IMG/VR virus record: IMGVR_UViG_3300022917_000008
Location: 32,001 to 96,000 of that record
Length of the DNA: 64,000 nucleotides
Origin: a virus
Lineage: Duplodnaviria > Caudoviricetes
Direction: 5' to 3' (one strand)
Made by a program: the position numbers and the translations under genes. Shown here one piece after another: positions 9,793-18,258 of the stretch. The notes beneath the pieces are model-generated. The model was given only the letters and a program-made list of their open reading frames with translations. It was not told the DNA's origin and searched no databases. How positions within the stretch are numbered: position 1 is the first letter of the stretch; each line of letters opens with the position of its first letter.

Positions 9793-11814
9793 TTATAAGA
9801 CTAACTCCTTTACAGGTTGGTACCTGTTTGAGGCATGCAGAGTCTTCAATGGCAAGAATGCATCAATGATGTCCAGATCATGGATGTTGGTGAACACCTG
9901 ATTCAAGACACCCATATTACATCCTCCAAAGTACATGATATTGGGAATATCCTGGAACTTCTTCCCATCTCCTACAGAGCCCTCCTTGACATCCCATATA
10001 ACAGTAACACCTTCCCATCCAAACCATTGCCTCATCTTGTTCTGGAACTCAAGGAAGCTTGATGTTGGACTATAAGAGCTATTGAACTCACCATCAGACA
10101 TGGCCAGTATGACCTTGTACCTGTTGATCATATCAATCCTCTGTGATGAGAATGCAGGCTCTTCATCTACCCATATCTTTAGTGCATCAGGTATTGCACT
10201 AAAGTTGGTACTACCATGTGGAGTACCAATGTACTTGGATATATTACTGAGATTCCATGAGAATGGCTTAGTCCTATCAACTAGTACATCAACAGTTGTG
10301 ACCTTAGTTGACATAAACTTGTTTCTCCCATTGGTCTCTGACTTAGTACCTGCAGCTACAACATCAGCTGAGGAACCAAACCTTACCAGGAATTCTCCTG
10401 CTTCAGCATCAGGGTTCTTCAGCAAGAATACTGTAGTGGCTAGCTGACAAAGTGCATTGGCACTGAATTCACTACCCTTGTGACTAACAGCTCTCATAGC
10501 CATAGACCCTGAGATGTCAGATGCTACAAGTACAGGTACCTGTAGTATAATCTTCTCAAGCAGGCTAAATGCCTTGACATCCATTTCTGCAGGAGTAAGT
10601 TTCCTGCTTGCAATCTCTGCAATGAGGTCAATGAGAACATCCCCAGCTACATTCACCTTAGCAGCCTTTTGGACTTGCTGAAGTTCCTTAGTGGTCATCT
10701 TCTCCTTTTCCTCAGTTGTGAGTGATGCAAGCTTGGTTTGGGCCTTCTGCTTGTCTGCCAGCCATTGGATGTACACAGCACCACAGTTCTCCCCAGACTT
10801 AAGTTTCCACTTATCCCTGGGTGAAAGTGTTCCTGCTTTGTCCTTGCTACATATCCTGCAGGCTACCCTATACCTTGCCTCAGAAGGCAATGTGTCTAAC
10901 CAATCCATAAACTGAGTCTTGTCCATGAATGTTACACTCCTGGGATCATCCAGATGTGCACTAAACTTAACAGCCTCAGTTTCAGACAGGTAGGTTTTCC
11001 TAAACTGCCTGTAACCCTCGAAATGCAAACCACCCTTCATCTTGGTGATCTTCCAGTCCATCTTGGCAGACAATGCCTTGATGAAATCAATCACCCAAGC
11101 ATCCTTCTGCTTTGTGTGCTCTTTCTTCTCTTTCTTCACTGTGATGGAATCACCCACCTTGGCATCAGCATACTTCTCATTCTTCTTGAATGCCTTGATG
11201 TTCTTGTCAGTAATAACATACTTGCGTATCCTACTACTGTTTGGTACATGGGGTAACCACCTGGCCCACAGCATCTTTTCATTCTCTGTGGTAGTAGTTG
11301 CCTTTAGTACCTTAGTGATGTAATCAGTGACAGGGTTAATGCCTACATCCAGCTTCAGAACTTCCTGTAGTGTACCTTTGTACCTATCAGTCTTCAGCTG
11401 GTAAAACATGATACCCCCCAAATTGTAATACTCTCCTATGATTGGTAGGAAAGTATAGAACTGCACTGGAGCCCTTTCAAGCATCCATTTTAAGCAGTAC
11501 ATAAACACACGTCTCTTACTCTGACCACCAGTGTCAGGTGTCTTGATACCTCTCCTACGGAAGACATTGTGTTCCCTATTGCTCATATCCCCTAGTGAGA
11601 ATACAAGAACATAGAACAACTCTTTCTTCTCCTTAGTGTTGCATTCACTCCATGCAGCGTCAAGGTACCTGTAAACCTGTTGCTGAGTGACTGTAGTATC
11701 TGATAACTTGTTGCCCTGTTGAAACAAGTCCAGTGTACTACTCATCTTGTAGAAAGGATTACTCTCCACAAGCTTTGATGTCTTAGCAGCCATAATTGAT
11801 CCACTCATTGACAT
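9793..11814 (-). CDS. TROVE/Ro60-like (DUF2828-type) helical protein with a C-terminal vWA domain
   Basis: MIDAS motif DISGSM, GSTNF, SDGEFN and VIWDV; basic helical N-terminal part with ARWLP; lies directly downstream of the tRNA-like RNA array. Confidence 0.7.
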   Translation of the reverse strand: MSMSGSIMAAKTSKLVESNPFYKMSSTLDLFQQGNKLSDTTVTQQQVYRYLDAAWSECNTKEKKELFYVLVFSLGDMSNREHNVFRRRGIKTPDTGGQSKRRVFMYCLKWMLERAPVQFYTFLPIIGEYYNLGGIMFYQLKTDRYKGTLQEVLKLDVGINPVTDYITKVLKATTTTENEKMLWARWLPHVPNSSRIRKYVITDKNIKAFKKNEKYADAKVGDSITVKKEKKEHTKQKDAWVIDFIKALSAKMDWKITKMKGGLHFEGYRQFRKTYLSETEAVKFSAHLDDPRSVTFMDKTQFMDWLDTLPSEARYRVACRICSKDKAGTLSPRDKWKLKSGENCGAVYIQWLADKQKAQTKLASLTTEEKEKMTTKELQQVQKAAKVNVAGDVLIDLIAEIASRKLTPAEMDVKAFSLLEKIILQVPVLVASDISGSMAMRAVSHKGSEFSANALCQLATTVFLLKNPDAEAGEFLVRFGSSADVVAAGTKSETNGRNKFMSTKVTTVDVLVDRTKPFSWNLSNISKYIGTPHGSTNFSAIPDALKIWVDEEPAFSSQRIDMINRYKVILAMSDGEFNSSYSPTSSFLEFQNKMRQWFGWEGVTVIWDVKEGSVGDGKKFQDIPNIMYFGGCNMGVLNQVFTNIHDLDIIDAFLPLKTLHASNRYQPVKELVL

Positions 11815-11855
11815 TTGGTTTTTAGCATTTCTCGAAATGGGTTAAAGACATAGAT

Positions 11856-11922
11856 ACTCACTAATGTTGATCAATTACAAGTTGATTGCTTTTGCAAAGC
11901 ATTGATTTGATTCTAAGTGAGT
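11856..11922 (-). ncRNA. Y-RNA-like element 1 (short, no tRNA domain)
   Basis: ACTCACTTAGAATC...ATTAGTGAGT closing helix around two small hairpins. Confidence 0.7.
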
Positions 11923-12000
11923 GAAGAAGTTAGTGTTAAGCTTGTCTCTCGCTACATGGCCTTTGCAGGGTTATTATGTAGACGTTTGCACTTAACACTT

Positions 12001-12121
12001 GTGTAGGGGATGGGATTCGAACCACATACATACGTCCTCCAAAAGGAATTGTATAAGTTATTCTAAGTAGTGTAATATACACTACTAATACTACGTGCTC
12101 TACCAATTGAGCTACCCCTAC
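12001..12121 (-). ncRNA. Y-RNA-like element 2: tRNA scaffold with the motif hairpin inserted between D and anticodon arms
   Basis: Acceptor GTAGGGG/CCCCTAC; D arm GCTCAATTGGTAGAGC; insert TTAGTAGTG-TATATTA-CACTACTTAGAATA; hairpin TCC-TTTTGGA-GGA; T loop TTCGAAT. Confidence 0.75.
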
Positions 12122-12395
12122 AAAATAGGAGTTCCTCCATAGAAAATGGAGGAACTCATAATGTCCTTAAAAACAACCTGTTGCAGAACCAAGCCTTGGC
12201 CATTTCAGCCAATACTTGTTTTTTGAGCAATATTGCTCGCTCTTGGAGGGAGATACAATCCCCTTCCAAGACTGGTAGTGAGCTGTGTCTAGTCTAACAC
12301 CTAGTCACCTGCCTACTAACATAGTTTGACAGTTACAATAGAAAAAGCCCCACATAGATATGTAGGGCCTTTATCAAAATTAACTGTAGGAACAG

Positions 12396-12514
12396 TTGGG
12401 GGACTTGGAATCGAACCAAGGACTATTCCTTATGATGGAATAATTGTTGTTGATGGATTATAAGTAGGTGTACCTACTAAGTAACTAATTGTGATACCAC
12501 TTCACCATCCCCCA
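12396..12514 (-). ncRNA. Y-RNA-like element 3: same topology as element 2, CAT anticodon hairpin, variant motif CTTATAAT
   Basis: Acceptor TGGGGGA/TCCCCCA; insert TTAGTAGG-TACA-CCTACTTATAAT; ATTCC-ATCATAA-GGAAT; T arm CTTGG-TTCGATT-CCAAG. Confidence 0.7.
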
Positions 12515-12521
12515 ATATAGA

Positions 12522-12582
12522 GACTCACTAATTGTTAATCTGGTGTTCCACTTAAGGAACTAGGTTGGATTCTAAGTGAGTC
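12522..12582 (-). ncRNA. Y-RNA-like element 4 (short)
   Basis: GACTCACTTAGAATC...ATTAGTGAGTC. Confidence 0.7.
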
Positions 12583-12591
12583 AAGAAATTA

Positions 12592-12711
12592 AGTCCTCTA
12601 ACTTATTTTTGGATTGATTAAGAATCAATTGCCTAACCATTTGGCTACTGTGGATTGCTCCATAGACAGGATTCGAACCTGTATTATTTGTTAAAGTATT
12701 CTAAGAGGACT
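12592..12711 (-). ncRNA. Y-RNA-like element 5: circularly permuted tRNA-Lys(CTT)
   Basis: Order: AGTCCTCTTAGAATA, T arm ACAGG-TTCGAAT-CCTGT, loop-closed acceptor, D arm, ATTGA-TTCTTAA-TCAAT, TTAGAGGACT. Confidence 0.8.
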
Positions 12712-12716
12712 ATTTG

Positions 12717-12791
12717 TGGAGAAAGTAAGACTCGAACTTACCTCCCTTGCTTATTTAAGGCAAGCCTGTAACCACTCCAGGGCATTTCTCC
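12717..12791 (-). tRNA. Atypical tRNA with a 9-nt anticodon loop
   Basis: Acceptor GGAGAAA/TTTCTCC; CTTGC-CTTAAATAA-GCAAG; T arm GTAAG-TTCGAGT-CTTAC. Confidence 0.6.
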
Positions 12792-12795
12792 AGGG

Positions 12796-12924
12796 ATTTC
12801 ACTAAGTTTAGTTGCCTATTTTCAAGTAGGTGCCTGACCACACAGGCTTACCCCCCATTAAATCTCCTCACATATGTGGGGGGTTAGGATTCGAACCCAT
12901 TTTTTGAGGTATTCTAAGTGAAAT
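12796..12924 (-). ncRNA. Y-RNA-like element 6: circularly permuted tRNA
   Basis: ATTTCACTTAGAATA, T loop TTCGAAT, acceptor CCCCCCA/TGGGGGG closed by a loop, D arm, CCTA-CTTGAAAA-TAGG, TTAGTGAAAT. Confidence 0.8.
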
Positions 12925-13075
12925 AAAGAACTTGAGTGAGCTTGGCCAAGCTGTATTATTCCCCTACACTTTTACAGTAGCACTGAAGCTTTTACAAAAA
13001 AGGCCATATCTTCTTTAGGCCCTAGGGCTCTAGTCTAACTATTAAGTACAGACCTTGTTAACACTCACTCTTTTG

Positions 13076-13158
13076 TGTTGGTGGGAGGGGTTACACCTCC
13101 ATGCCTTGCGGCGCTTTGACATTTAATCGCAGTGTGTCTATATTTCCACCACACCAAC
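13076..13158 (-). tRNA. Degenerate Leu-like tRNA with a disrupted anticodon arm
   Basis: Acceptor GTTGGTG/CACCAAC; variable arm GCC-GCAA-GGC; T stem GGAGG/CCTCC with a non-canonical loop. Confidence 0.5.
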
Positions 13159-13190
13159 AAGTACTGTGCAAACATACAACAATAAACTGA

Positions 13191-13394
13191 AACCCACTAA
13201 TTTTTCTTCTTTTTTGACATAAAAGTGCTCACCACTGAACTTCTCCCCCTAGTTGAAATATAGTAGGCCTATGGAAATAAGCCTACTTGAAACATCCTTA
13301 GAAGCGCGAGCCACGAAGTGCCCCAGAGATGGGGACTTTGTAGAGCAGGGGGAGCCAGAGTCGAACTGGTATTTGTATGTATTCTAAGTGGGCT
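13191..13394 (-). ncRNA. Y-RNA-like element 7: permuted tRNA (GTC loop) with a ~90-nt structured insert closing the acceptor stem
   Basis: AGCCCACTTAGAATA, CCAG-TTCGACT-CTGG, CTCCCCCT...AGGGGGAG, D arm, CTTTT-ATGTCAA-AAAAG, TTAGTGGGTT. Confidence 0.75.
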
Positions 13395-13474
13395 AAAGAG
13401 TTTAAAAGAAGGGTGTAGAAACACCCTTCGAGGTGTTAAGTAACCCCAAAAGGGGCTTTACTTATGAAAAAAGG

Positions 13475-13575
13475 TGTGGAGAGGAGGATTTGAACCTCCA
13501 TGAATGTCTTGCAACATTCCCAGCTATAGTCCAGGGTCCAGCCTATAGCCTGCTCTACTATTGGCATACCTCCAC
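13475..13575 (-). ncRNA. tRNA-like RNA with an enlarged anticodon arm and a long variable arm
   Basis: Acceptor GTGGAGG/TCTCCAC; GCTATAG-13nt-CTATAGC; GAATGT-TGCAAG-ACATTC; GGAGG-TTCAAAT-CCTCC. Confidence 0.6.
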
Positions 13576-13756
13576 ATATGTATATCAGTCACTTATATCC
13601 TCATATATAGTAGCTGATAAAGCTATTATTGATAGTACTATTAATAATGCTATTGAAACCCATGCAGGTAGGTACAATATGGCACATGCTATTATACCAG
13701 CTATCAAAGCCATTACAACCAATATGGCTAGGGCTATGCCTACACTTTCTGCTGCC

Positions 13757-14266
13757 TTACGTGTATCCATCTGCTTCCTCCTTGTATTTGTCTCTGTACA
13801 CATTCCTTAGTATGGATAGGATTCTTGCATTAGGCTTTGTGCTTGGATTGAGAGACCTTGCAGTAAAGTAGTCAATGTCTGCCCAATCATTGATAAATTG
13901 AGCAACTGCACCACTTCTTTTGACCCCAGCAGCACAATGCACTACACATACATCTGCATGGCTATTCTGCTCTATAAAGGCCAAAATAGCCTTTCCCTGC
14001 TCCTCACTCATGGGAACTACAGAAATGTACTCTCTTTTGTCACGACCCAATAAAGGCACCTGTAATGGCTCATCAACATCATCAAATAGTAGTCTTAGAA
14101 CATTTGGATGGTCTTTTTGGAACCAGTGGGGCATTCTTAGCAGGTCTTGCTCTCCTATTATCTCAATGAAGCAAGCCTTGTTCTTTAGGCTAACATTTTC
14201 ATCATTAAGATGTTCCCTAGCTACCATTGCTCCAAACTGATTCCATGATAATGCAAGTGCTATCAT
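13757..14266 (-). CDS. Cys-based (PTP/dual-specificity) phosphatase-like protein
   Basis: VHCAAGVKRS CX5R P-loop; FDDVD acid loop. Confidence 0.85.
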   Translation of the reverse strand: MIALALSWNQFGAMVAREHLNDENVSLKNKACFIEIIGEQDLLRMPHWFQKDHPNVLRLLFDDVDEPLQVPLLGRDKREYISVVPMSEEQGKAILAFIEQNSHADVCVVHCAAGVKRSGAVAQFINDWADIDYFTARSLNPSTKPNARILSILRNVYRDKYKEEADGYT

Positions 14267-14432
14267 CTTTCAGTGTCTTTATAAACATCATAAGATACAG
14301 TGAGGGCAATGGAACTAGCTAGTACCCACCACATATATTCACTGTCATGCTGAATTACCAGTAATATTGTGTTAAGTATAACAGACAGCCCGTTTAGTAT
14401 TACAGCAGCTAAGGCAGCCCAATGTAATGCTC

Positions 14433-14663
14433 TCATTTCTTACCTCCTAATAGCATTATCAAGCCTGTAGCAACACCCAGTCCTATCCATATAGATAGAG
14501 ACAAGACAGTACTAAAGGCAATAACCCATAAGAATATAACCATAACAGCATGAACACTAGGTTCACTTATTCCAGCTGTTATCCAGTGGATGATATGGTT
14601 AGCTGTACTAAAGCACATCCACATTGAAAAGATTGCTATTGCAATCGCAATAATGTATCTCAT
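14433..14663 (-). CDS. Small membrane protein
   Basis: 76 aa, almost entirely hydrophobic; overlaps the stop of the upstream gene. Confidence 0.6.
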   Translation of the reverse strand: MRYIIAIAIAIFSMWMCFSTANHIIHWITAGISEPSVHAVMVIFLWVIAFSTVLSLSIWIGLGVATGLIMLLGGKK

Positions 14664-15085
14664 TTCTCCAGTAACTTGTAATAGCCTTTGCAGTGATCAC
14701 ACTGACTAAGGCACTTTGACTTCCCCTCTACATTCCTCTGACAATAGACATATCTATTGAATTTGGCAATACCCAAGGAGAGTTTAATAGTCTTCGTATA
14801 GGCAACTAGGCTATGCACATACAGATCAGGTCTGAATATGTGCATAAAATCCCCTAAGGAGTAGGTTCTTCCTTTGCAGAAAAATCTAGCCTTTCCCCTT
14901 AGTTTAACATTCATTCTCCACATCCATCCATCTATTGGATCAGTATGTGGGCTAAGAACAGTCTTAGCTGGATACTTGAGTATATACCCATCAAATCCAA
15001 CCCTTCCTATTCTGAGGTAAAGGAAGCACCACTTATAGTAGATAACTCCCTGTTGTCTGCCTGGTATCCACCTAAATAGTTTCAT
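14660..15085 (-). CDS. 2OG-Fe(II) oxygenase-like protein
   Basis: ILKYP....LSPHTD (HxD) and a distal FRPD..VHS His. Confidence 0.65.
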   Translation of the reverse strand: MKLFRWIPGRQQGVIYYKWCFLYLRIGRVGFDGYILKYPAKTVLSPHTDPIDGWMWRMNVKLRGKARFFCKGRTYSLGDFMHIFRPDLYVHSLVAYTKTIKLSLGIAKFNRYVYCQRNVEGKSKCLSQCDHCKGYYKLLEK

Positions 15086-15342
15086 ATCCTGTGTTAAAAA
15101 GAGAGCCCCATAGTAGAAACTAAGGGCTGCTAACGATTGCTTGCCATATTAAAAAGAGTTAATCCTGTCTACCTCCAATAGTAGAATAGTCCAGCAAAAC
15201 TTAATGCTCAGCCCTTGTGAAAGGGTTTTCTCAAACTATCTCCCTTATCAAGCTTGCCTTGGATAGCCTACATTCCTTTTGGGTGTCCTGTAGTGCTTGC
15301 CTAAGAGCAGGACTAAAGAATTTTAGGAGCAATCAAAATGTC

Positions 15343-15621
15343 TTACTGTTGTGCGTTAGCATGAGCATGTTCCTCCTGCTGAGTAGCCTCCTCCTGGGTG
15401 TTCTCCTCAGCATGTATTTCATTCACAGACTCATAGAACATGTTTGTCCTGTTCCTACAGGCCTGTTTGGCATCCTCACTCAGGTCCTCAAAGGGCACCA
15501 TAAGGTTCTCACCATTTACATCCACACTCTTGTGGCCCTGTCCCTCTTTGTCAGAGACCCACTTCTTGTGTTGGCGTGCTGATACTTTCTCAATGTCAGG
15601 TAATTGCAAGTTGTTCTTCAT
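15343..15621 (-). CDS. RyR-domain-like small protein
   Basis: H..W...K...G and LMVPFEDLSEDAKQ..R pattern. Confidence 0.55.
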   Translation of the reverse strand: MKNNLQLPDIEKVSARQHKKWVSDKEGQGHKSVDVNGENLMVPFEDLSEDAKQACRNRTNMFYESVNEIHAEENTQEEATQQEEHAHANAQQ

Positions 15622-15670
15622 ACTTGTTCTGTTTTTATGAAAGTGAATAAATAAGCTTTGTTAAAATAGG

Positions 15671-15789
15671 AACTCACTAAACTTTTTAAGATGGGAGTCG
15701 AACCCATTACCCATTGATTAGAAGTCAATTGCTCTACCAAATGAGCTACTTCTCCAGATTAAGGAGATTTGATGTATTCTAAGTGAGTT
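15671..15789 (-). ncRNA. Y-RNA-like element 8: unpermuted D, anticodon (TCT) and T arms closed by the motif helix
   Basis: AACTCACTTAGAATA...GCTCATTTGGTAGAGC, ATTGA-CTTCTAA-TCAAT, ATGGG-TTCGACT-CCCAT...TTAGTGAGTT. Confidence 0.8.
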
Positions 15790-15866
15790 AAGAAAGTATG
15801 TAGGGGCGTGCTTCCAGCTACACCACAACTTGAAGGGCCTTGACCCTTGCCTCCCCTACAATAATA

Positions 15867-16442
15867 TTACATCTTCCTAAAGGAAGTCTTCTTGTCAAAC
15901 CCATGACTAACTACCTTCTCAATGTCAGTCCTTGTATCCTTGATAATAGGTTCCCTAGTTAAGAACTCTACTATCCTAAGGTACGCATCTTCAGGAGGCA
16001 CTAACCTACCAAACTGAAAGTCTGCTAGCTTTACATTCTTAGTACCTTCCCCATCAAATGTATACCTAGGTAGTAGCACCACAGGACAGTTTAGCTTCTC
16101 ATTCACATCTGTTGGTTTGTTATGTCCAGTAAGGTACTCACGCTCAGTAGGGAGTTTGTATGCATTCTCCTTATCCACAAACTTTCTTAGCACTAGGACT
16201 TCATCCCCTATGTATACCTTCCCATTGTAACAACACACCTTGTACGTTGTTCCACAAAAAGCTATTCCATAATAGTAATACCCAGGTAGGTCAAGATACT
16301 CAGGCCTGTATATGCCACTTTTCACCCATGAGTGCTGTGGTGTTTCAGTTTCACATACTCTCTCATATACTACCTTAGGGTCAATACCATATTTACCAAT
16401 AAGGAAGTCATAGTAGTCCTTGAAGTTAGATACGATCTTCAT
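15867..16442 (-). CDS. Hypothetical phage protein
   Basis: MKIVSNFKDYYD...HGFDKKTSFR; ATGA overlap with the HD gene. Confidence 0.75.
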   Translation of the reverse strand: MKIVSNFKDYYDFLIGKYGIDPKVVYERVCETETPQHSWVKSGIYRPEYLDLPGYYYYGIAFCGTTYKVCCYNGKVYIGDEVLVLRKFVDKENAYKLPTEREYLTGHNKPTDVNEKLNCPVVLLPRYTFDGEGTKNVKLADFQFGRLVPPEDAYLRIVEFLTREPIIKDTRTDIEKVVSHGFDKKTSFRKM

Positions 16443-16990
16443 GACACAGTTTTTGCTTGTCCAAACAGTAGTTGGTCTAGATGATCCTGCATTTCCCTGT
16501 ATTCATTCCCTAGTTGCATCTCACTGAGGAACTGATTGTGCTCCCTCATGTGCATACTAAGCTTGCTGTTCTTGAACATGACACCATGCCTTACATTGGC
16601 TATCTTGTCACAAAGCTTGACAAACTTAGCACCAGGAGTTTCCCTTATGTTCTGCCAGTATATAGGTGGATGTCTTTCATTCCTATTCCTACCAGGATAC
16701 TCAGTAACAGCTAGAATGACTTCAGCTACCCATATAGCATCTTCATTAGTGTGTCCTTCAAGCAGGCTAATGTGTTGAATCACATCACTGTAGTTGGTTC
16801 TTGCATCTTCATACAGGTCATGGCCTGCAATGGCATACCTGTACCTCCAAAACTCTGCTTTGGGCACCAGATGTTGGAACTCCTTAGCTACTTGTAAGGC
16901 AAGCCTCAGATGATACTCATAAGGCAGATAGTCCTCATACATGTGATTTGTTATCTCATGCCTGTGAATGGCCCATGTCACAAAGTCCAT
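16439..16990 (-). CDS. HD-domain hydrolase, SpoT/Mesh1-like (small alarmone hydrolase-like)
   Basis: PYEYHL, GHDLYED and VKLCDKIAN motifs; start moved to ATG 16990 because the track start lies inside RNA element 9. Confidence 0.8.
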   Translation of the reverse strand: MDFVTWAIHRHEITNHMYEDYLPYEYHLRLALQVAKEFQHLVPKAEFWRYRYAIAGHDLYEDARTNYSDVIQHISLLEGHTNEDAIWVAEVILAVTEYPGRNRNERHPPIYWQNIRETPGAKFVKLCDKIANVRHGVMFKNSKLSMHMREHNQFLSEMQLGNEYREMQDHLDQLLFGQAKTVS

Positions 16991-17016
16991 AAATGGTTGT
17001 TTTAAGGTTAAAAATA

Positions 17017-17129
17017 AGCTCACTAATTCTTTTTTTGGCACACCTAGGGGGATTGGATACCCCCACTTCCAGGGCTAGCCTGGCGTCTTATTTAGACTAT
17101 AGATATAAGTAAAGTATTCTAAGTGAGCT
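17017..17129 (-). ncRNA. Y-RNA-like element 9: degenerate cloverleaf ending in CCA, nested inside the motif helix
   Basis: AGCTCACTTAGAATA...TATATCTA/TAGGTGTG-CCA with three internal hairpins...TTAGTGAGCT. Confidence 0.7.
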
Positions 17130-17152
17130 GTTGATATGCATGATACTATGTA

Positions 17153-17260
17153 GGGGGGAAGGTGGGATTTGAACCCACTATTACAAAAACCAAATTTTGC
17201 TTTTTACCAATGTTTGAAGGTATTCTAAGAGGTCAACCTCTAACAAGATTAACTTCCCCC
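17153..17260 (-). ncRNA. Y-RNA-like element 10: motif hairpin in place of the D arm
   Basis: Acceptor GGGGGAAG/CTTCCCCC; TTAGAGG-TTGA-CCTCTTAGAATA; T arm GTGGG-TTCAAAT-CCCAC. Confidence 0.75.
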
Positions 17261-17475
17261 ATTTAGACCCTTCTGGTGGGTCAGCCCGTCCATTCAATGC
17301 CTTTCTGGTATATGTCTCACCACCCTGCTTCCAGTTGCACATACTGTATTGAGTGTAGTCTATTGTGGCGACCCAATACTATGTGAGGCAAAGAGATTCC
17401 ACCTCCTCCTGGACTAGGACTGGAGGTCATTTTGCAGAGTACCACCGTCCAAAAGTACACGTACAGTGTGAACCT

Positions 17476-18057
17476 TTATCTTTGTCTTTGAGTCTGCCTC
17501 AAAGGTACTTTTAGTGCCTCATCATACATCTTAGACAAGTCATTAATGTGTATATGAGCACTAATGCCCCAGTTACCATTAACCCTTAATGTAAGATACT
17601 CACTCTTCAGCCAATCAGGGAACTCCATATTACCCCTTGTCTTATTACACTTCTTGCATGCACTAATAAGGTTCTCTTCAACTGAAGCACCCATCTTCTC
17701 CCAAAGGACAATATGGTCTACAGTCAAGGGTACTTGGTTATTACCACAATACTGACAAGTGTAGTTGTCTCTCCTGAATACATTCCAGGATATAGTTTGT
17801 TCAATGTTTCTTTGAGACTTTCTAAGTACTACCTTGTTGAGTCCCATAACCCCCAATGTATCAAGCTGATACAAGAGGGTCTTCCACTCTTCATGAGTGG
17901 GTTGTATGATGGATAGAGGTACTAGACCAGTCTCTGGAAAAAGCATTAGTTCTGCTTCCTGTCCATTAGCCAGTAACATACCACTTATCTCTAGCTTATC
18001 ACCATACTTCAATAACTCCTCTGGCCTAAATGGCCCAGTCAAATTCTTCATAGACAC
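17476..18057 (-). CDS. HNH endonuclease
   Basis: RDNYTCQYCG...LTVDHI...NLISACKKCNKTRG. Confidence 0.85.
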   Translation of the reverse strand: MSMKNLTGPFRPEELLKYGDKLEISGMLLANGQEAELMLFPETGLVPLSIIQPTHEEWKTLLYQLDTLGVMGLNKVVLRKSQRNIEQTISWNVFRRDNYTCQYCGNNQVPLTVDHIVLWEKMGASVEENLISACKKCNKTRGNMEFPDWLKSEYLTLRVNGNWGISAHIHINDLSKMYDEALKVPLRQTQRQR

Positions 18058-18073
18058 AGTTTGTTTAGAGTAG

Positions 18074-18179
18074 CTGGGGAACCCATATTGCTATGGGCAC
18101 TTGGATTTGGACTCCAAGGTTCAGTGTAATGTTATTCTAAGTAAGGAAGGGTCTTACTAACACTTAATGAATTCCCCAG
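18074..18179 (-). ncRNA. Y-RNA-like element 11: motif hairpin in the D-arm position, CCA anticodon-like loop
   Basis: CTGGGGAA/TTCCCCAG; TTAGTAAG-ACCCTTC-CTTACTTAGAATA; CTTGGA-GTCCAAA-TCCAAG; CCCAT-AGCAAT-ATGGG. Confidence 0.7.
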
Positions 18180-18203
18180 TTTCCCTGATTGTTGTTTGGT
18201 GAC

Positions 18204-18258
18204 AGTCACTAATATCTTAAAACCATATCTAAGTTGTTGTGTTTATTCTAAGTGTACT
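18204..18258 (-). ncRNA. Y-RNA-like element 12 (short)
   Basis: AGTACACTTAGAATA...ATTAGTGACT. Confidence 0.6.

What the first reader, a model, noticed from the sequence alone, without database searches (positions are those of the whole stretch)
9793..18258. Ro60/TROVE-like gene with 12 divergent Y-RNA-like tRNA mimics sharing a bulged CUUAGAAU/UUAG helix
SEEN: on the minus strand CTTAGAAT occurs 11 times in intergenic DNA between 11.9 and 18.3 kb, plus one CTTATAAT. Each copy has a partner TTAG, and the flanking helix co-varies (ACTCAC/GTGAGT, GTCCTC/GAGGAC, TTTCAC/GTGAAA, GCCCAC/GTGGGT, CCTAC/GTAGG, CTTAC/GTAAG), which supports an RNA helix with one bulged U followed by GAAU. Nine of the 12 carry tRNA arms. 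The array is directly upstream of, and co-oriented with, a 673-aa helical plus vWA protein. ESTABLISHED: bacterial Ro60 (Rsr) binds Y RNAs through a bulged helix with a GNCGAA-type 5' strand; YrlA RNAs are permuted tRNA mimics encoded next to rsr, usually one or two per locus. INFERENCE: this is a distinct Ro-like RNP family with its own binding motif and a library of RNA adaptors, possibly decoys for anticodon nucleases or tethers for RNA repair or decay enzymes.
Basis: partly seen in the sequence, partly recalled or inferred. Interest (0 to 1): 0.93.

Follow-up and report, generated by a model that had tools for sequence, protein, structure and literature searches.

The report
Ro-like protein with tagged tRNA-mimic RNAs
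A large uncultured phage encodes a ring-protein look-alike of the Ro60 autoantigen next to twelve small tRNA-like RNA genes that all carry one short tag; related phages put the tag around real tRNA genes and the protein's own start codon, and crAss001 has a near-identical tag beside its TROVE gene, so it is probably this protein's RNA handle.

Summary
Eleven CTTAGAAT and one CTTATAAT lie on the minus strand at 11.9-18.3 kb. That is 11 of the genome's 15 exact copies. Eleven of the 12 have a partner TTAG plus a complementary strand; the twelfth pairs only 3 bp.

The unit is a 7-bp covarying helix plus fixed inner pairs. After it come UUANAAU on the 5' strand and an A on the 3' strand. It either closes an RNA or caps a hairpin inside a tRNA-like body.

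The 673-aa protein has a MIDAS vWA domain and a helical N-domain. Ro60 is its best full-length structural match. No TROVE or DUF2828 profile hits it, and the N-domain alone gives no Ro60 match.

- About 100 such cassettes lie beside homologous genes (26-42% identity). There they enclose canonical tRNAs, permuted tRNA mimics and small hairpin RNAs.
- In 30 of 76 distinct gene starts a cassette encloses the gene's own start codon.
- Three new phage records found by cassette alone all carry the gene.
- crAss001, which has a Pfam-certified TROVE gene, has four analogous cassettes directly beside it.

Best reading (0.6): a divergent Ro60/Y-RNA-type particle with its own RNA handle. Binding and transcripts are untested.

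The parts
9793..11814 (-). Ro60-like gene, 673 aa (a collection entry starts 7 codons later, 666 aa): helical repeat N-domain (about 1-420) plus C-terminal vWA with MIDAS DxSGS at 433-437
11855..11923 (-). E1: end-closing cassette. 6-7 bp helix, CTTAGAAT at 11917-11910, TTAG at 11864-11861. The 48-nt insert has two hairpins, one with a 5-bp stem and 7-nt anticodon-loop-like loop. No tRNA arms.
12002..12121 (-). E2: tRNA-like body (acceptor, D arm, T arm; Rfam tRNA 42.7 bits) with the tag as an internal hairpin (TTAG 12088, CTTAGAAT 12067)
12396..12514 (-). E3: tRNA-like body (Rfam tRNA 43.6 bits) with acceptor, D arm, a CAU anticodon-like arm and T arm. The tag hairpin (TTAG 12480, CTTATAAT 12464) is inserted between the D and anticodon arms.
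12522..12582 (-). E4: small end-closing cassette, 7-bp helix, 40-nt insert with one hairpin
12592..12711 (-). E5: end-closing cassette holding a permuted tRNA mimic (T arm, closed acceptor, D arm, anticodon-like arm CUU). Weak full-length YrlA match, 19.9 bits.
12796..12924 (-). E6: end-closing cassette with permuted tRNA mimic (T arm, 7-8 bp closed acceptor, D arm, further hairpin)
13191..13394 (-). E7: end-closing cassette with permuted tRNA mimic. The acceptor strands are separated by about 100 nt of hairpins. Anticodon-like arm GUC.
15671..15789 (-). E8: end-closing cassette enclosing an unpermuted tRNA core (Rfam tRNA 53.8 bits, model positions 5-66, UCU loop). A hairpin stands in place of the acceptor stem.
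17017..17129 (-). E9: end-closing cassette, 7-bp helix, with two GC-rich hairpins (one T-arm-like)
17154..17260 (-). E10: 8-bp acceptor-like stem and T arm. The tag is a short internal hairpin (4 bp plus tetraloop, CTTAGAAT 17229). UGG anticodon-like arm.
18070..18180 (-). E11: 7-bp acceptor-like stem, tag hairpin (5 bp, CTTAGAAT 18141), T-arm-like hairpin and an extra hairpin
18205..18258 (-). E12: CTTAGAAT at 18252 with only a 3-bp partner. A weak or decayed copy.

Best explanation
The 673-aa protein is a very divergent Ro60-type RNA-binding protein: a helical repeat domain plus a MIDAS vWA domain. The twelve elements are its Y-RNA-like partners. Each carries one modular handle. The handle is a 7-bp helix of free sequence whose inner end is fixed (A-U, C-G, U-A). 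It is followed on the 5' strand by UANAAU plus an A/C-rich linker, and on the 3' strand by an unpaired A or U-rich stretch. The handle projects from the RNA body in two ways: as the paired 5'/3' ends, or as a capped hairpin inside a tRNA-like scaffold. Inferred: the protein grips this handle, and the tRNA-like body or anticodon-loop-like hairpin is displayed to tRNA-handling or RNA-decay proteins, as YrlA and the phiLo Yrl RNAs do for Ro60. In related phages the same handle is placed around genuine tRNA precursors and around the protein's own translation start. This suggests that the protein also holds pre-tRNAs and represses its own mRNA. Shown here: the handle, its covariation, its exclusive linkage to this gene family, and its near-twin next to a certified TROVE gene. 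Inferred only: binding, transcript ends and the downstream effect.
For: Handle and covariation:
- Statistics in the window.
- About 100 cassettes in 24 relatives' loci; 39 distinct helix strands among 75; 4-5 pair types at five helix positions; inner pairs invariant.
- RNAalifold recovers the outer helix with compensatory changes at 4 of 8 pairs around 17 canonical tRNAs.
- In E2, E3, E10 and E11, 7-8 bp acceptor stems pair across the tag, so the tag lies inside the RNA.

Protein:
- The top 12 Foldseek PDB hits are all Ro60, over about 670 columns, E 2e-7.
- VIA Z 14.4 (Rsr), Z 13.5 (Xenopus Ro60, 383 residues aligned), Z 10.9 (phage phiLo Ro60, 413 aligned).
- Language-model neighbours of the N-domain alone are DUF2828 and TROVE clusters, scores 0.90-0.92.

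Linkage:
- The Ro-like gene is the only window ORF (70 aa or more, first 30 kb) found in all 21 IMG/VR loci; one HNH ORF matched a single locus.
- Cassettes lie directly upstream of the gene in lineages of 26-42% identity.
- ACTTACAAT clusters in the tRNA/gene region and is not genome-wide.
- 3 of 3 new records found by cassette alone have the gene; 0 of 5 chance-match records do.

Own start codon: enclosed by a cassette in 30 of 76 distinct gene starts, with at least four helix versions.

crAss001: all four minus-strand TTACTTCAA copies lie in the 906-nt gap beside TROVE gene gp96, with 7-bp covarying helices and tRNA-like scaffolds, and this is conserved in its clade.

Precedent: phiLo Ro60 binds two Yrl RNAs encoded directly upstream of its gene (PMC12135203). 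YrlA RNAs are tRNA mimics encoded beside rsr (PMC4201824).
Against: - No sequence profile links the protein to TROVE or DUF2828. hhalign against crAss001 gp96 aligns only the MIDAS segment.
- The N-domain folded alone matches only generic HEAT, MIF4G and CID repeats (Z 6.8 or less). Ro60 is not in its top 50. The full-length Ro60 match may therefore lean on the vWA domain.
- The tag differs from the GNCGAA/CGAA Ro-binding motif.
- Gene-tag linkage could be shared ancestry within one phage group and need not be a physical partnership.
- In relatives the tag sits 5-16 nt before tRNA +1 and about 25 nt before the gene's ATG. A promoter or a processing site would sit in the same places.
- No RNA data could be obtained.
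Confidence: 0.6

Rival explanations
1. The cassette is an RNA processing or insulating signal, and the Ro-like gene is only a syntenic neighbour. The leader-trailer helix would fold each tRNA or small RNA as its own domain in a polycistronic transcript. It would mark the cut sites for a host or phage nuclease, as the leader-trailer helices of rRNA operons do for RNase III.
For: In relatives the cassettes enclose canonical tRNAs with short leaders (5-16 nt) and trailers (2-8 nt). They can abut directly with no room for a promoter. U-rich tracts follow the 3' strand. The helix length is fixed at 7-8 bp.
Against: The window's own 24 canonical tRNAs carry no cassette, yet the cassette persists on non-tRNA RNAs next to the gene. 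Hairpin-type copies inside tRNA-like bodies, and cassettes over the gene's start codon, are hard to read as excision sites. No nuclease gene co-occurs in the loci. The same architecture sits beside the TROVE gene in crAss001, away from its tRNA block.
Confidence: 0.2
2. The conserved TTA(N)AAT is the -10 element of a phage-specific promoter class for small RNA genes and for the Ro-like gene. The helix would be secondary.
For: TAGAAT, TACAAT and TATAAT are good -10 hexamers. In several relatives the spacing to tRNA +1 is 5-7 nt. A TTACAAA/TTACAAT box lies about 25 nt before the gene's ATG in most lineages.
Against: The 7 nt upstream of the box covary with a partner 40-240 nt downstream, which a promoter does not explain. 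Only 1 of 12 window copies has a -35-like hexamer, and promoter-like sites are not above shuffles. In four elements acceptor stems pair across the box. In one lineage group the ATG overlaps the box itself. The mapped crAss-like middle promoter of phi14:2 is an ordinary TTGACT-17-TATATT. The box is not spread over the genome.
Confidence: 0.08
3. E5-E7 and their relatives are true circularly permuted tRNA genes. The closing helix would guide end-joining, and cuts in the acceptor loop would then give working tRNAs, as in the red alga Cyanidioschyzon.
For: Gene order is T arm, acceptor 3' strand, loop, acceptor 5' strand, D arm, anticodon arm. In two related copies the acceptor loop reads N-CCA.
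Against: No bulge-helix-bulge motif was seen. Joining at the helix would leave a 20-30 nt variable region. No RtcB or CCA-adding enzyme was found in the phage. The same helix also flanks unpermuted tRNAs and non-tRNA RNAs.
Confidence: 0.04

Closest known systems
Bacterial and mycobacteriophage Ro60 (Rsr) with YrlA/YrlB Y RNAs (Chen et al. 2014, PMC4201824)
   Same: A ring-type RNA-binding protein with a vWA domain, encoded beside co-oriented small RNA genes. The RNAs have paired 5'/3' ends carrying a short conserved 5'-strand motif that contains GAA. The tRNA-mimic domain has the order T arm, closed acceptor, D arm (E5-E7).
   Different: The protein does not hit PF05731. The motif is UUANAAU after an ACU/AGU helix end, not GNCGAA. 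There are 12 RNAs where one or two are usual. Several keep an anticodon-like arm. The tag can also sit as an internal hairpin. The YrlA model scores 19.9 bits against a cut-off of 69.
Thermus phage phiLo Ro60 with Yrl1 and Yrl2 (PMC12135203; PDB 9KOP, 9L5Y)
   Same: A phage-encoded Ro60 with its RNA genes directly upstream of the gene. The RNAs have a 5'-3' stem plus an internal loop motif. It gives a full-length structural match to the model here (413 residues aligned, Z 10.9).
   Different: phiLo Ro60 is recognisable as TROVE and uses a CGAA motif on two RNAs. No tRNA scaffolds, no tRNAs inside cassettes and no cassette over the start codon were reported.
Bacteroides phage crAss001 gp96 TROVE protein (early gene; PMC8375218) and the four tagged RNAs seen here beside it
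   Same: A 7-bp covarying helix followed by UUAC..CAA, with the partner strand mostly preceded by A. Both end-closing and internal-hairpin forms occur. It has tRNA-like scaffolds and lies next to the gene and co-oriented with it.
   Different: The protein there is a Pfam TROVE of 472 aa. The tag reads UUACUUCAA, and the RNAs lie downstream of the gene. I found no paper describing these RNAs.
Leader-trailer helices of rRNA operons (RNase III processing stems)
   Same: Sequences flanking a structural RNA pair with each other across it.
   Different: Those stems are long, there is one per rRNA, and they carry no such junction motif. Here the helix is 7-8 bp and repeats on each small RNA.
Circularly permuted tRNA genes of Cyanidioschyzon merolae and Thermofilum (own knowledge, not checked here)
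   Same: The 3' half lies before the 5' half, and the termini are paired.
   Different: No bulge-helix-bulge motif, and the junction lies in the variable region with long linkers. No ligase was found in the phage.

Membership tests
Ro60 / TROVE protein (PF05731) | Sequence match to the TROVE profile | tested here: not met
   No Pfam hit at E 0.1 or below. Six-frame search of the genome with PF05731 found nothing at E 10 or below, while the controls rang. Ten distant family members also lack it.
Ro60 / TROVE protein (PF05731) | C-terminal vWA domain with MIDAS motif | tested here: met
   D433, S435 and S437 are invariant in 24 sequences. vWA structures match residues 416-649 at Z 9-13.
Ro60 / TROVE protein (PF05731) | HEAT-repeat domain closed into a ring | tested here: inconclusive
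   The full-length model matches Ro60 best. The N-domain alone gives only generic helical-repeat matches with Z 6.8 or less. Language-model neighbours are DUF2828 and TROVE clusters.
Ro60 / TROVE protein (PF05731) | Co-oriented small RNA genes beside the gene, with paired ends and a conserved stem motif | tested here: met
Ro60 / TROVE protein (PF05731) | Binds those RNAs | not testable with these tools
   Needs EMSA or RIP.
DUF2828 (PF11443) | Sequence match to the profile | tested here: not met
   Only an embedding lead at 0.91-0.92.
YrlA RNA (RF02553) | Covariance-model score at or above the gathering score (69 bits) | tested here: not met
   The best hit is E5 at 19.9 bits, full model length.
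YrlA RNA (RF02553) | tRNA-like domain in the order T arm, closed acceptor-like stem, D arm, closed by a protein-binding stem | tested here: met
   E5, E6 and E7. Relatives L017 17114 and L023 18481.
YrlA RNA (RF02553) | GNCGAA(N)G motif on the 5' strand | tested here: not met
   The motif here is UUAGAAU; only GAAU lines up in the model alignment.
Sigma-70-type promoter | A -35-like hexamer 16-18 nt upstream of the box | tested here: not met
   Found for 1 of 12 copies; sites are not above shuffles.
Permuted tRNA gene (algal or archaeal type) | Bulge-helix-bulge at the paired termini, and a ligase | tested here: inconclusive
   No such motif was seen in the folds. No RtcB in the phage. Host enzymes were not examined.

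The most novel reading that the evidence does not exclude
The tag is a universal RNA handle of crAss-type phages. One Ro-like ring protein would use it to grip every phage tRNA precursor, a set of tRNA and anticodon-loop mimics, and its own mRNA. That would make a virus-encoded, self-limiting tRNA-handling particle that controls or shields the phage's tRNA supply during infection, for example against host anticodon nucleases.
Probability: 0.3. Interest if true: 0.85.

Novelty: new variant of a known kind. Interest (0 to 1): 0.72.

Why it matters
Ro60/Y-RNA particles are known in animals, in bacteria and in a few phages, but what they act on is still unclear. Four things here bear on that.

- The protein family has about 250 clusters at 50% identity and no annotation. 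It appears to be a hidden branch of that system.
- Its RNA partners are marked by a simple tag that can be searched for.
- The tag shows what the system touches: tRNA mimics, real tRNA precursors and the protein's own message. That points the long-open question of Ro function towards tRNA handling in phage infection.
- A near-identical tag lies beside the TROVE gene of crAss001, a cultured model of the most abundant human gut phage group. The idea can therefore be tested at the bench now.

Tried and rejected
- No RNA holder was listed for the stretch. Only four leaf-litter DNA runs hold it.
- Laying their contigs showed strain differences between elements and a 74-base deletion at 15793-15866, but no listed change fell inside a tag or helix (46 further differences were not shown). 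This gave no extra covariation.
The closest relatives (42-66% identity, Logan contigs) therefore could not be fetched.
- megablast and tblastn against GenBank phages found nothing.
- PHROGs gave no family for the protein.
- A PDB sequence profile search gave nothing at E 1 or below.
- The exact CTTAGAAT is not enriched in relatives. The family tag had to be found by k-mer counting.
- The pattern scan of IMG/VR gave mostly chance matches and had to be filtered by the helix.
- phi14:2: its abundant early noncoding region holds no such cassette, and its middle promoter is an ordinary sigma-70 type.
- K-turn, loop E, bulge-helix-bulge and boxA readings of the tag were considered from memory. I dropped them because the conserved bases do not fit.
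- Homologues of crAss001 gp96 were too alike (77% identity or more) to build a useful TROVE profile for hhalign.
- No RtcB or CCA-adding enzyme was found in the phage.
- Neighbouring ORFs gave only an HNH endonuclease, an HD phosphohydrolase-like hit and a kinase-like hit.

Full report
**Setting.** The window is bases 32001-96000 of a 155.7-kb, CheckV-complete IMG/VR phage record. The DNA is held by leaf-litter metagenome runs. The phage has 24 tRNA-type genes and a tmRNA elsewhere in the window. Earlier notes of this scan call it crAss-like. I did not test that, but it led me to the crAss literature.

**The observation.** CTTAGAAT occurs 12 times in the window, all on the minus strand (3.5 expected; none of 100 shuffles reaches 12). 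Eleven copies lie between 11910 and 18252. The whole genome has 15 copies. A twelfth, CTTATAAT, lies at 12464. For 11 of the 12, the bases just 5' of the motif are complementary to the bases just 3' of a nearby TTAG. Using each copy's own strand, 10 of 12 reach 6 bp or more; with strands borrowed from other copies 1.0 is expected.

There are two topologies.
- In E1, E4-E9 and, weakly, E12, the motif strand is 5' and the TTAG strand is 3'. The helix then closes the whole RNA.
- In E2, E3, E10 and E11 the order is reversed and a short loop caps the helix. The tag is then a hairpin inside a body closed by a 7-8 bp acceptor-like stem.

In both, the conserved junction faces the RNA body and the helix points away from it. 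Minimum-energy folds reproduce these helices. Nine elements have T-arm-like hairpins. E5-E7 have the order T arm, closed acceptor, D arm, anticodon-like arm. E8 holds an unpermuted tRNA core (Rfam 53.8 bits). E2 and E3 score as tRNAs with large insertions. E1 and E4 are small and carry anticodon-loop-like hairpins.

**The protein.** The 673-aa ORF has no Pfam or PHROG family. Six-frame searches with TROVE and DUF2828 profiles find nothing. It belongs to an unannotated family: 38 close clusters and 246 representatives at 50% identity. The MIDAS motif is invariant.

An AlphaFold model (pLDDT 80) has a helical N-part with small beta insertions and a vWA C-part. Its 12 best Foldseek matches in the PDB are all Ro60, aligned over about 670 columns (E 2e-7, but TM 0.35-0.5). 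An aligner independent of Foldseek ranks D. radiodurans Rsr (Z 14.4), Xenopus Ro60 (Z 13.5, 383 residues) and phage phiLo Ro60 (Z 10.9, 413 residues) as the only full-length matches.

Folded alone, the N-domain matches only generic HEAT, MIF4G and CID repeats. Its language-model neighbours, however, are DUF2828 and TROVE clusters (0.90-0.92). hhalign against the crAss001 TROVE protein aligns only the MIDAS segment. So the protein has a Ro60-like architecture, and TROVE homology is not shown.

**Relatives.** Twenty-one IMG/VR loci (26-35% identity) all have the gene embedded in co-oriented tRNA arrays. The exact window motif is not enriched there. The commonest 8-mers there are ACTTACAA and CTTACAAT, the same tag with C or T at the variable position.

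When the 3' junction is relaxed to 'A before G', about 100 cassettes appear. They have 39 distinct helix strands among 75 full copies, 4-5 pair types at five helix positions, and fixed A-U, C-G and U-A pairs at the inner end. What they enclose:
- canonical tRNAs, with leaders of 5-16 nt and trailers of 2-8 nt;
- permuted tRNA mimics like E5-E7;
- 32-58 nt RNAs, often with an anticodon-loop-like hairpin.

RNAalifold on 17 tRNA cassettes recovers the outer helix, with compensatory changes at four of eight pairs. Cassettes can abut directly, so arrays are probably co-transcribed. In whole relatives' genomes ACTTACAAT clusters in the tRNA/gene region. The Ro-like gene is the only window ORF found in all these loci. 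Metagenome relatives of 39-42% identity have three to five cassettes directly upstream of the gene, with T, C or G at the variable base.

**Reciprocal test.** I scanned IMG/VR for the tag plus a T loop and kept only hits with the 7-bp helix. Four records could be checked; one was already known. All three new ones carry the gene, and none of five chance-match records does. These may all belong to one phage group, so shared ancestry remains a caveat.

**The gene's own start.** In 30 of 76 distinct gene 5' regions a cassette encloses the start codon. At least four different helix versions occur. In one lineage group the ATG overlaps the last bases of the tag, and the 3' strand lies in the codons before the conserved NPFY. 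Most other lineages have the box about 25 nt before the ATG. This pattern is typical of autogenous translational control by an RNA-binding protein, though a promoter would sit in a similar place. The window's own gene lacks this feature.

**crAss001.** This cultured phage has an early-expressed gene annotated TROVE (PMC8375218), whose homologs carry PF05731. All four minus-strand copies of TTACTTCAA in its genome lie in the 906-nt gap directly beside that gene, co-oriented with it.
- Two are end-closing cassettes with 7-bp helices.
- Two are hairpins inside tRNA-like scaffolds, one of which scores 46.6 bits as tRNA.
- In its clade (down to about 75% identity) the 9-mer is the top repeat beside the gene, and the helices covary.

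The tag differs from the relatives' AGTTAC-TTACAAT by little more than one base. I found no paper describing these RNAs. The same RNA architecture therefore accompanies a bona fide TROVE protein. This is the strongest argument that the window's protein is the functional counterpart.

**Rivals.**
- Promoter. This fails to explain the long-range covariation, the acceptor stems that pair across the tag, the lack of -35 boxes (1 of 12) and the restricted distribution.
- Processing or insulation signal. This fits the tRNA cassettes of relatives. It fits less well the window, where real tRNAs lack the tag, and less well the hairpin form and the start-codon cassettes.
- True permuted tRNA genes. This is unlikely: there is no bulge-helix-bulge motif, the junction linkers are long, and the phage has no ligase or CCA enzyme.

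**Verdict.** This is most likely a divergent Ro60/Y-RNA-type particle with its own modular RNA handle. It is a new variant of a known kind. Binding, transcript ends and biological role are untested.

Noticed in passing
window 12717-12791 (-): A tRNA that ARAGORN misses but Rfam scores at 42.4 bits. The model alignment shows an over-long anticodon loop of about nine bases. It lies between E6 and E5 and has no tag.
   Followed up: partly
window 13475-13575 (-): A weak tRNA hit (27.7 bits, just under the cut-off) with a roughly 30-nt insertion, upstream of E7 and without a tag.
   Followed up: no
window 15793-15866: A sister strain in another leaf-litter run lacks these 74 bases, which hold a hairpin-rich piece with a 7-bp GC-rich stem. 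Three other letters stand in their place. A second strain difference replaces 15403-15574.
   Followed up: no
MH675552 (crAss001) 96,000-96,870; locus L236 3966-4870 (-): Four TTACTTCAA-tagged RNAs lie beside the TROVE gene gp96. Two are inside tRNA-like scaffolds. They appear to be undescribed, and a band-7/SPFH gene lies nearby.
   Followed up: partly
loci L009 9979-10035, L028, L159, L162, L163, L164, L024: A cassette encloses the start codon of the Ro-like gene. In L009 and L028 the ATG overlaps the tag, and the 3' strand lies in the codons just before the conserved NPFY.
   Followed up: partly
L017 17114-17255 and L023 18481-18622: Permuted tRNA mimics whose closed acceptor loop reads N-CCA, as if a 3' end were encoded.
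   Followed up: no
window 15867-17041 (-): Two overlapping ORFs sit inside the RNA array: phrog_4243, and an HD-type phosphohydrolase-like ORF (phrog_990). No nucleotidyltransferase profile hit was found in the genome.
   Followed up: partly
window 12129-12157, 12343-12372, 13424-13453 (-): Terminator-like hairpins lie between elements of the array. There are 14 in the region, against 4.2 in shuffles.
   Followed up: no
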